From contig JAHQWJ010000062.1 in NCBI GenBank assembly GCA_029856125.1, forward strand, positions 96,001 through 160,000: DNA of 64,000 bases. The letters run 5' to 3'. A program made the position numbers and the translations under genes. Below the pieces are notes generated by a model. It did no database searches, had not been told where the DNA came from, and saw only the letters and a program-made list of their open reading frames with translations. Position 1 is the first letter of the stretch. Every line of letters begins with the position of its first letter. Positions 10,636 to 35,369 of this stretch are shown here, in pieces. The DNA comes from Promethearchaeia archaeon. Its GTDB lineage: Archaea > Asgardarchaeota > Lokiarchaeia > Sigyniarchaeales > SOKP01.

Positions 10636-11247
10636 ATGGGAAGAAGGAAACGTAAACAACAATCATATAAAAGAGTTAAGCGAGTTCCAAAGATTTTCAC
10701 GTGCCCAAATAACTAAATGGATACCCCATTTAATATGGATTGCGGTGAAAAATCTGTCAAGGTTAAGAATATTCGGAAAAGCTTAATTGCCACAGTGAAG
10801 TGTGGTCATTGTGGCTTAACAAAGGATGTTTTAATTAATTCTATATCAGAACCGGTTGATGCCTTTGGAGATTTTATCGATATTCATTACGCTGATCAGG
10901 AACTTCAGAGACTAGAAAAACGCATAGAGAAACTTAAAAAGAAAAATGAATGGGGGGAATTAGTTCTAGTTTATTCTATTTTATCGGATATTTGCAAAGC
11001 TAAAGCTGCAGAGGCCTTAGAAGATGAAGATAATGTCAACCTTGATGTAGTTAATAAATGGAAAATTAGAGCGGAAGAATATAAAAGGTTAGGAAAGGAT
11101 GCATTACTTCAACTAGACTCTCTTGAGTTAGAGAAAGGAATTAAAACAGATGACGAGTCTTTGTTTACAGAGCACGACGAGAGTGACATGAAGAGGGAAA
11201 AAAAAATCGAAGATATTTTTGACGATCCAGGCTTTCTTGAATTCTAA
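10636..11247 (+). CDS. elf1: Transcription elongation factor Elf1 with C-terminal extension; two exons (10636..10710, 10741..11247)
   Basis: MGRRKRK..PKIFTCPN joined to CGEKSV..ATVKCGHCGL..EPVDAFGDFID matches Elf1; interrupted by an in-frame 30-nt insert containing TAA. Confidence 0.85.
10711..10740 (+). other. Putative BHB-type intron in elf1 mRNA (30 nt)
   Basis: AACTAAATGGATACCCCATTTAATATGGAT; internal stem TAAATGG/CCATTTA, bulges ATA and ATT, exon-exon helix; removal restores CPNCG. Confidence 0.75.
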
Positions 11248-13232: not shown

Positions 13233-13676
13233 CTATCCCGATTGATTTCTCTTAGAAAAAAGCTGCTTTAATTCACCCATTATCGCACCTCTTAAGCTCA
13301 CAGGGCTAGCTGGACGCGCAGCTCCTGGGCCTCCGGGTGGTGGACCTCCGGGTGGACCTCCGGGTGGTGGTGGTGGACCTCCGGGTGGACCTCCAGAAGG
13401 TGGTGGTGCGCTGCTTGGAGAAGAAGGTGAAGCGATTACTGGGGATGCCCCACCGCCTTTGGTCCGTAGTGATGATACTTCATTGTTAAACGTATTAAAT
13501 CGTGATTCCAATGTGGATATTTTTTGATTTACAGAAGCTAAAGACTGATCTACTAAATCGGGTATTTTTAGAATTACAGACATCATTCTTTCAACAATGT
13601 CTCCAAATGCGTTTAGTTTTTCTTCTAATGGAGCCTTTTTTGTTTCTTGCATGAAATTTGCGAATTCTTCTGCCAT
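13233..13676 (-). CDS. Coiled-coil, polyproline and C-terminal amphipathic (WH2-like) helix protein
   Basis: Heptads, then (GGPP)n/PPPPP tract, then LRGAIMGELKQLF. Confidence 0.75.
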   Translation of the reverse strand: MAEEFANFMQETKKAPLEEKLNAFGDIVERMMSVILKIPDLVDQSLASVNQKISTLESRFNTFNNEVSSLRTKGGGASPVIASPSSPSSAPPPSGGPPGGPPPPPGGPPGGPPPGGPGAARPASPVSLRGAIMGELKQLFSKRNQSG

Positions 13677-35275: not shown

Positions 35276-35279
35276 GAAG

Positions 35280-35369
35280 AGCCTTTGGGGGGAGTTGAAC
35301 CCCCGATCTACTGATGATTCGAATCGAACATTTTACGAATCAGTTGCTCTACGACTAAGCCACAAAGGC
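35280..35369 (-). tRNA. tRNA-Thr(CGT) with 18-nt intron at 37/38 (35316..35333)
   Basis: GCCTTTG acceptor stem, ACTGA-TTCGTA|A-TCAGT anticodon arm, TTCG/CGAA central helix with 3-nt bulge, U73. Confidence 0.9.

What the first reader, a model, noticed from the sequence alone, without database searches (positions are those of the whole stretch)
10636..11247. Candidate tRNA-type (BHB) intron in a protein-coding gene, elf1
Seen: the Elf1 frame reads ...FT-TGC CCA AAT | 30 nt containing TAA | TGC GGT..., so removing 10711..10740 restores the CPNCG knuckle in frame and gives a 193-aa protein. The RNA can fold as an exon-exon helix (AGATTTTCAC-G-TGC with GCG-GTG-A-AAAATCT), a central helix CCAA/ATGG (3 of 4 pairs), 3-nt bulges ATA and ATT, and an intron stem ACTAAATGG/CCATTTAAT (one mismatch). 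Cutting after the second base of each bulge gives exactly the frame-restoring junction. Known: EndA cuts BHB motifs this way, RtcB ligates the ends, and crenarchaeal cbf5 is the classic archaeal mRNA example. Inference: mRNA splicing of a transcription elongation factor in an Asgard archaeon. I do not know of a prior report for elf1.
Basis: partly seen in the sequence, partly recalled or inferred. Interest (0 to 1): 0.95.

Follow-up and report, generated by a model that had tools for sequence, protein, structure and literature searches.

The report
tRNA-type intron in Asgard elf1 gene
A 30-base insert breaks the only gene for the transcription factor Elf1 in a Loki-type Asgard archaeon; its shape and its relatives indicate that the tRNA-splicing enzymes cut it out of the messenger RNA, which the papers I could search confirm for only one other archaeal coding region (cbf5).

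Summary
Confirmed. A 30-nt stop-containing insert (10711-10740) splits the first CxxC of the genome's only elf1; removing it gives a 193-aa protein like those of insert-free relatives. The same codon junction carries a 28-32-nt insert in 23 other genomes of three genera (absent in 21 congeners), often frame-shifting. All 24 fold as bulge-helix-bulge (BHB) motifs whose predicted EndA cuts give the restoring junction, and the intron side of the central helix changes along with the exon side. Exon 1 stays under purifying selection (dN/dS 0.05). The genome has a catalytic EndA with a broad-specificity-type loop, a second EndA subunit and RtcB. Two more single-locus genes are broken the same way: aIF2-gamma and uL11 (four sites, up to three inserts per gene in relatives). 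Best reading (0.93): a pre-mRNA intron removed by EndA/RtcB, as in crenarchaeal cbf5. No spliced RNA was seen; here the central helix has one A-A mismatch. I found no paper on elf1 or Asgard mRNA introns. This scan had already noted the elf1 intron and many similar ones on other DNA.

The parts
10636..10710 (+). elf1 exon 1 (25 codons: basic N-terminal tail, first zinc ligand Cys23, Pro24, Asn25)
   Evidence: dN/dS 0.05 among 16 insert-bearing congeners; aligns to the N-terminus of yeast Elf1 through an insert-free relative
10711..10740 (+). 30-nt BHB-type intron with in-frame TAA (10714-16)
10741..11247 (+). elf1 exon 2 (Cys26 to the stop; rest of the zinc ribbon plus a ~110-aa helical and acidic extension)
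10691..10704 (+). 5' arm of the exon-exon helix (pairs with 10742-10755; G10701 bulged)
10705..10711 (+). central helix 5' strand CCAA plus first 3-nt bulge ATA; predicted cut between 10710 and 10711
10712..10734 (+). intron hairpin: 9-bp stem (one C-A mismatch), 5-nt loop 10721-10725
10735..10741 (+). central helix 3' strand ATGG plus second 3-nt bulge ATT; predicted cut between 10740 and 10741
10742..10755 (+). 3' arm of the exon-exon helix
21704..23176 (+). RtcB RNA ligase gene (490 aa), the likely ligase; 11 kb away, not in an operon with elf1
   Evidence: PF01139 full length, E 2.6e-170, no stops, only match in the genome

Best explanation
The insert is a tRNA-type (BHB) intron in the elf1 pre-mRNA. 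Shown from sequence: the two exons pair over about 13 bp around the insert, which completes a 4-bp central helix flanked by two 3-nt bulges. Inferred from established EndA chemistry: the genome's two-subunit EndA cuts after the second base of each bulge (10710/10711 and 10740/10741), RtcB joins the exons, and the mRNA then encodes the full 193-aa Elf1 with four zinc ligands. Unspliced RNA stops after 26 codons. The insert is one of a scattered set of such mRNA introns in this Lokiarchaeia family (uL11 and aIF2-gamma in the same genome), tolerated because EndA removes them, and gained or lost repeatedly, in at least one case by recombination with an insert-free allele. No regulatory role is needed to explain the data.
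For: Only elf1 locus in a 99%-complete genome. Insert at the same codon 25/26 junction in 16 of 37 scorable congeners and 8 genomes of two further genera, lengths 28, 30, 31, 32 nt; removal restores a 192-194-aa protein in all. In 24 of 24: central helix at least 3/4 paired (4/4 in the six 28- and 32-nt congeners), first three exon pairs formed; no sequence-equivalent shifted junction gives the motif. The intron-encoded helix strand follows the exon strand: CCAA/ATGG or TTGG, CCGA/ACGG or TCGG, CCAC/GAGG, CCGG/CCTG, CCGT/GCGG. Four pairs with two-sided changes, 0/500 shuffles reach the covariation score, slid controls 34-51% paired against 91%. In G043 only the BHB cut keeps both Asn25 and Cys26; in G011 aIF2-gamma only the BHB register restores the P-loop lysine. 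Exon 1 dN/dS 0.05, also among frame-shifting alleles. EndA alpha keeps the Tyr-His-Lys triad and residues matching K44/R46 of the Aeropyrum loop that confers broad specificity; a second EndA gene lacks the His and Lys; RtcB intact. uL11 carries BHB-shaped inserts at four sites, three in one gene, each removal restoring the protein.
Against: No spliced transcript, circular intron or cleavage assay seen; insert-free contigs that I traced look like genomic alleles. The central helix here has an A-A mismatch in the pair next to the first bulge, conserved in ten congeners, and the minimum-energy fold does not show both bulges. Related genomes are not independent: the link between the insert and a purine at Pro24 position 3 (24/24 against 11/28) rests on 5 independent pairs and is not significant.
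Confidence: 0.93

Rival explanations
1. No splicing: the gene is read as two coupled ORFs (26-aa peptide, TAA, restart at ATG 10717 for a 176-aa protein), used as a two-piece or three-cysteine Elf1.
For: TAA is directly followed by an in-frame ATG; all 16 insert-bearing congeners have some start codon in the exon-2 frame inside the insert; gene callers annotate the 176-aa form; it would also explain selection on exon 1.
Against: Six of eight insert-bearing genomes of the other two genera have no ATG/GTG/TTG between the last stop and Cys26. The start two codons before Cys26 is forced by pairing with the Pro codon (NTGG); the one eight codons before is out of frame in the 28- and 31-nt alleles. 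In the would-be leader peptide, third codon positions are mostly fixed while first and second positions vary, the opposite of protein selection. It cannot explain covariation, nor three inserts in one uL11 gene or a P-loop split at its lysine.
Confidence: 0.03
2. Recoding on unspliced RNA (stop readthrough, frameshifting or ribosomal bypass of the hairpin) gives full-length protein.
For: The 30-nt insert is in frame and forms a hairpin; I have no RNA data to exclude a bypass.
Against: Lengths of 28, 31 and 32 nt and stops TAA, TAG and TGA at different places; readthrough would put ten residues inside the CxxC; no matched take-off and landing codons; the boundaries sit at BHB cut positions in three different genes.
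Confidence: 0.02
3. Dead gene: the insert inactivated elf1 in these lineages.
For: Elf1 was not found in some Asgard families in the phylum draw, so it may be dispensable.
Against: Both exons keep dN/dS 0.05-0.10, as in insert-free genes; no other stop or frameshift in any of 24 alleles; the insert is itself conserved (identical in L269 and this genome, whose exons differ at 75 of 579 nt).
Confidence: 0.01
4. Assembly or sequencing artefact.
For: Raw reads could not be inspected.
Against: Variant copies at the same site in 23 other genomes and in independent metagenome contigs.
Confidence: 0.003

Closest known systems
cbf5 pre-mRNA intron of Crenarchaeota (Desulfurococcales, Sulfolobales; Yokobori et al. 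2009, PMC2738675)
   Same: Short (cbf5: 16-44 nt; here 28-32 nt), no ORF, BHB-like and often relaxed motif, cut after the second bulge base, interrupts a key functional motif, hetero-oligomeric EndA in the host, lineage-specific loss.
   Different: Other gene and other phylum; not alone in its genome (uL11, aIF2-gamma); present or absent between alleles that are 95-98% identical; splicing shown by cDNA for cbf5, not yet here.
BHB intron in the 5' UTR of Haloferax volcanii HVO_1309 (Schwarz et al. 2020, PMC7714728)
   Same: mRNA substrate of the archaeal splicing endonuclease.
   Different: Outside the coding region, so not needed to make the protein; 46 nt; shown by circRNA-seq and in vitro.
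Non-canonical tRNA introns of Asgard archaea (bioRxiv 10.64898/2026.10.13.758758; PMC11291895)
   Same: Same motif, same size range, repeated gains, alpha/beta EndA background, also not yet shown spliced in an Asgard cell.
   Different: Those papers treat tRNA genes only; the preprint's main text has no occurrence of 'mRNA' or 'cbf5'.
Eukaryotic HAC1/XBP1 unconventional splicing (from own knowledge)
   Same: Short non-spliceosomal intron in a transcription regulator's mRNA, ends joined by a tRNA ligase (RtcB in animals).
   Different: Cut by IRE1 at two stem-loops, signal-regulated; here a BHB for EndA, with no evidence of regulation. An analogy, not homology.

Membership tests
Archaeal BHB (EndA-type) pre-mRNA intron, cbf5 kind | [quoted passage not shown] | tested here: inconclusive
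   3 of 4 pairs in this genome (A-A mismatch), so strict form not met here; 4 of 4 in six congeners and two further contigs. Relaxed motifs are the rule for cbf5.
Archaeal BHB (EndA-type) pre-mRNA intron, cbf5 kind | Outer exon-exon helix and inner intron helix flank the bulges | tested here: met
   13-bp exon helix, 9-bp intron stem; 92% of cells paired in each across 15 alleles, three two-sided changes in the stem
Archaeal BHB (EndA-type) pre-mRNA intron, cbf5 kind | Cuts after the second bulge base coincide with the junction defined by intron-free homologues | tested here: met
   24 of 24 elf1 alleles; junction pinned independently in G043
Archaeal BHB (EndA-type) pre-mRNA intron, cbf5 kind | Removal restores a conserved reading frame under purifying selection | tested here: met
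Archaeal BHB (EndA-type) pre-mRNA intron, cbf5 kind | Host encodes a hetero-oligomeric EndA able to cut relaxed motifs, and an RNA ligase | tested here: met
   Genes present: catalytic subunit with triad and CSL-like loop, second subunit, RtcB. Activity not tested.
Archaeal BHB (EndA-type) pre-mRNA intron, cbf5 kind | Spliced mRNA or excised intron detected; cleavage by EndA in vitro | not testable with these tools
   No read-level RNA data; the insert-free contigs checked are best read as genomic alleles
Group I / group II self-splicing intron, or homing-endonuclease rRNA intron | Ribozyme core of hundreds of nt, or an encoded endonuclease or maturase | tested here: not met
   30 nt, no ORF, no Rfam match at the site
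Elf1/ELOF1 (PF05129) | Basic N-terminus, CxxC...CxxC zinc ribbon, SEPVD helix | tested here: met
   PF05129 47 bits read through; insert-free relative matches Elf1 chains in PDB at E 4e-9; four invariant Cys in 28 homologues; top fold matches are Elf1 chains, E 0.04-0.16

The most novel reading that the evidence does not exclude
EndA/RtcB splicing of mRNA is a routine step in this Asgard family (I put that part at about 0.85), and beyond that the conserved imperfect BHB of elf1 is a tuned, regulated switch: unspliced RNA gives a 26-aa basic peptide and perhaps a restarted zinc-deficient 176-aa form, spliced RNA the full factor, an archaeal counterpart of HAC1/XBP1-type control. Nothing here shows regulation, and the repeated clean loss of the insert argues that it is dispensable.
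Probability: 0.08. Interest if true: 0.95.

Novelty: new variant of a known kind. Interest (0 to 1): 0.8.

Why it matters
Papers up to 2020 name cbf5 as the only archaeal coding region with a spliced intron. Here the only copies of a transcription elongation factor, initiation factor aIF2-gamma and ribosomal protein uL11 are all broken by tRNA-type introns in a close prokaryotic relative of eukaryotes, with multi-intron genes in congeners. If spliced, mRNA splicing by the tRNA machinery is ordinary in this lineage, which bears on how split genes could be tolerated before the spliceosome and nucleus. It gives direct tests (30-nt junction RT-PCR, EndA assay) and natural plus/minus allele pairs for studying intron gain and loss. 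In practice, these genes are mis-annotated as truncated in public databases (over a hundred 170-176-aa 'Elf1' entries in my samples), which can distort gene-content and marker-gene studies.

Tried and rejected
First search for copies of the insert timed out; the repeat found no second copy in the genome (best other match 22/30), so no donor was identified. De novo genome-wide BHB scan with a coding filter: noisy, missed elf1 itself (probably through the coding filter), but found uL11 and aIF2-gamma; it gives no reliable count. Motif-free comparison with 372 kb of two relatives (212 ORF comparisons, some on shadow frames) found only elf1 as a BHB insert inside a gene of this genome, so such introns are sparse. 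Search for a spliced transcript through 193-aa proteins whose exon 2 equals that of a 176-aa entry: the pairs differ by clustered substitutions around the site, so they are alleles, not cDNA. Low elf1 scores in genus g14 are due to an in-frame extra zinc ribbon, not an intron. No reverse transcriptase (PF00078) found in the genome. Codon-bias test with independent pairs not significant. Sigma-70 promoter scan uninformative for an archaeon. Fold of the C-terminal extension gave no clear match. The single-gene tree is affected by recombination, so I do not count gains against losses from it.

Full report
Observation. The frame from ATG 10636 reads a basic tail and FTCPN, then stops at TAA 10714-10716; removing 10711-10740 gives a 193-aa protein with CPNCG. 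The read-through scores 47 bits on Pfam Elf1 over residues 2-83, the downstream ORF alone only from model position 27. It is the only elf1 locus in a genome of 99% completeness by tblastn and by a family profile. Homologues are labelled Lokiarchaeota or Promethearchaeota by their sources, which supports the Asgard assignment. Two limits: the junction can slide 2 nt left without changing the product, and the region's folding energy alone is not unusual (z -1.79). The specific geometry is: none of 20,000 shuffles of the insert equalled it.

Relatives. Of 42 genomes of the genus, 37 have a readable 5' end of elf1; 16 carry an insert at the codon 25/26 junction and 21 do not. Lengths are 30 (nine), 32 (five), 28 and 31 nt, so seven shift the frame. 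Eight genomes of two other genera of the family carry different 30-32-nt inserts at the same junction, after a Gln or Glu codon instead of Asn. Outside this family no interrupted elf1 was seen among those searched (14 genomes of the order read directly or by match, and a draw of 251 from the phylum judged by scores). Removal restores a 192-194-aa protein in all 24.

RNA motif. At that junction all 24 have at least 3 of 4 central pairs and three exon-exon pairs, and no equivalent shifted junction does. The 28- and 32-nt congeners and two further contigs have 4 of 4. The 3' strand of the central helix is intron-encoded and free of coding constraint, yet it follows the exon strand as codons 24-25 change: CCAA with ATGG or TTGG, CCGA with ACGG or TCGG, CCAC with GAGG, CCGG with CCTG, CCGT with GCGG. 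On 15 congeneric alleles 91% of cells pair, four pairs change on both sides, and slid controls fall to 34-51% (related sequences inflate the shuffle test, so I weigh the slid control and the cross-genus pattern more). In G043 the cut cannot slide without changing Asn25 or Cys26, and it falls where the BHB rule puts it. The A-A mismatch of this genome is shared by ten congeners, so it is tolerated or kept.

Selection. Exon 1 has dN/dS 0.052 among the 16 insert-bearing genes and 0.050 among the seven frame-shifting ones, against 0.035 in insert-free genes; exon 2 has 0.07-0.10. The genes are alive. The TAA-ATG arrangement suggests a restart, but six genomes of the other genera have no start codon between the last stop and Cys26, and within the would-be leader peptide the variable sites are mostly first and second codon positions in the hairpin loop and 3' arm. 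A restart on unspliced RNA may happen as a by-product; it is not what is conserved.

Machinery. Two EndA genes are present. One aligns to the Aeropyrum catalytic subunit at E 1.7e-33 with the Tyr, His and Lys of the active site and with Lys and Arg at the places of K44 and R46 of the Crenarchaea-specific loop, the loop shown to give broad substrate range (PMC3241643). The other lacks the His and Lys and is read as the structural subunit. RtcB is intact and lies in this window. A tRNA-Thr with an 18-nt anticodon-loop intron lies at 35279-35369, so the pathway is needed anyway. That EndA cuts after the second bulge base is from PMC2738675; ligation by RtcB is established knowledge, not tested here.

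Not an isolated case. A motif scan of the genome independently returned a 28-nt insert in uL11 (C72:4371-4398) and a 29-nt insert in aIF2-gamma (C136:18999-19027). uL11 is intact in at least 11 congeners and carries 28-38-nt inserts at four different sites in others, two in G009 and G045 and three in G057; the central helices are 4 of 4 where my automatic register choice found the right cut, and each removal restores the protein. aIF2-gamma is single-copy and split inside GHVDHGKT here and in G011, intact in four others; in G011 only the BHB register gives the lysine. A motif-free comparison of 212 ORFs found only elf1, so the density is low, of the order of one per few hundred genes; I did not obtain a genome count.

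Gain and loss. On the exon tree, with the junction codons left out, the insert needs at least 5 changes on well supported branches and one clade is rejected (p-AU 1e-6). Insert-free alleles sit next to insert-bearing ones at 93-96% identity (G004, G250, L258) with clean junctions. In L271 and L272, from two independent samples, the insert-free allele differs from insert-bearing L274 at 16-17 of the first 180 nt and 0-2 of the next 399, while L273, L274, G013 and G014 agree in that first part: the insert was lost by import of a short patch from an insert-free donor (the pairs were chosen for identical exon-2 proteins, which favours a similar far part). G004 and L258 show no such patch. No reverse transcriptase was found in this genome and no second copy of the insert. 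Whether the three genera share one origin or reuse a ready-made exon hairpin is open; the exon-exon helix is also encoded by insert-free genes.

Comparison with print. Searches of open full texts gave cbf5 as the one coding-region case (PMC2738675, which also says introns in other protein genes had been predicted but not confirmed), the Haloferax 5' UTR intron, whose authors call cbf5 the only earlier example (PMC7714728), and two reports of heavy tRNA intron loads in Asgard archaea that do not treat mRNA. Subscription journals were not searched. It works like the cbf5 intron and meets every membership feature testable here except the strict 4-bp helix; direct splicing is untested.

Earlier notes of this scan. 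The same elf1 intron was noted on other DNA, and many BHB inserts in other Asgard protein genes. These are unchecked notes and are not counted as support; the aIF2-gamma claim I confirmed myself, and the restart idea I tested and found unsupported.

Verdict. Real feature; spliced BHB mRNA intron at 0.93. New gene and new phylum for a known mechanism, with a multi-gene, multi-intron extent not in the papers I could search: new variant of a known kind, interest 0.8.

Noticed in passing
G000 C72:4371-4398 (L224) and L212-L229: uL11 gene with a 28-nt BHB insert; congeners carry inserts at four sites in the first 35 codons, up to three per gene (G057).
   Followed up: yes
G000 C136:18999-19027 (L280); G011 (L279): aIF2-gamma split in the P-loop by a 29-nt BHB insert; intact in four other genomes.
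   Followed up: yes
L271, L272 against L273, L274; L268 against L269: Near-identical elf1 alleles with and without the insert differ in a patch of about 170 nt around the site: allele exchange by recombination. Upstream regions also look shuffled among lineages.
   Followed up: partly
window 10860-11247: Elf1 of this order has a ~110-aa extension (three long helices by AlphaFold, pLDDT 80-90, then an acidic tail ending in a conserved DPGFLEF motif); no fold match found.
   Followed up: partly
L245, L248-L250 (genus g14): Elf1 with an in-frame insertion of about 50 aa holding two extra CxxC pairs inside the zinc ribbon.
   Followed up: no
window 35279-35369 (-): tRNA-Thr(CGT) with an 18-nt intron at 37/38; ARAGORN finds only 30 tRNA genes in the genome, many with introns, so more are probably hidden by introns.
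   Followed up: partly
L268:105-110: Insert-free low-coverage contig with Lys instead of Asn at codon 25; could be a point change, an error or an imprecise loss.
   Followed up: no
window 13233-13676 (-): 147-aa ORF with a coiled-coil-like start, proline/glycine-rich repeats and a short C-terminal helix resembling a WH2-like actin-binding arrangement (by eye only; no Pfam hit).
   Followed up: no
No Elf1 match in several Asgard families of the draw (for example 1 of 26 in f8, 0 of 8 in f17); loss or divergence not examined.
   Followed up: no
G000 C56 25179-25206 (-): Weak de novo candidate of 28 nt upstream of a Sir2-like motif; not verified.
   Followed up: no
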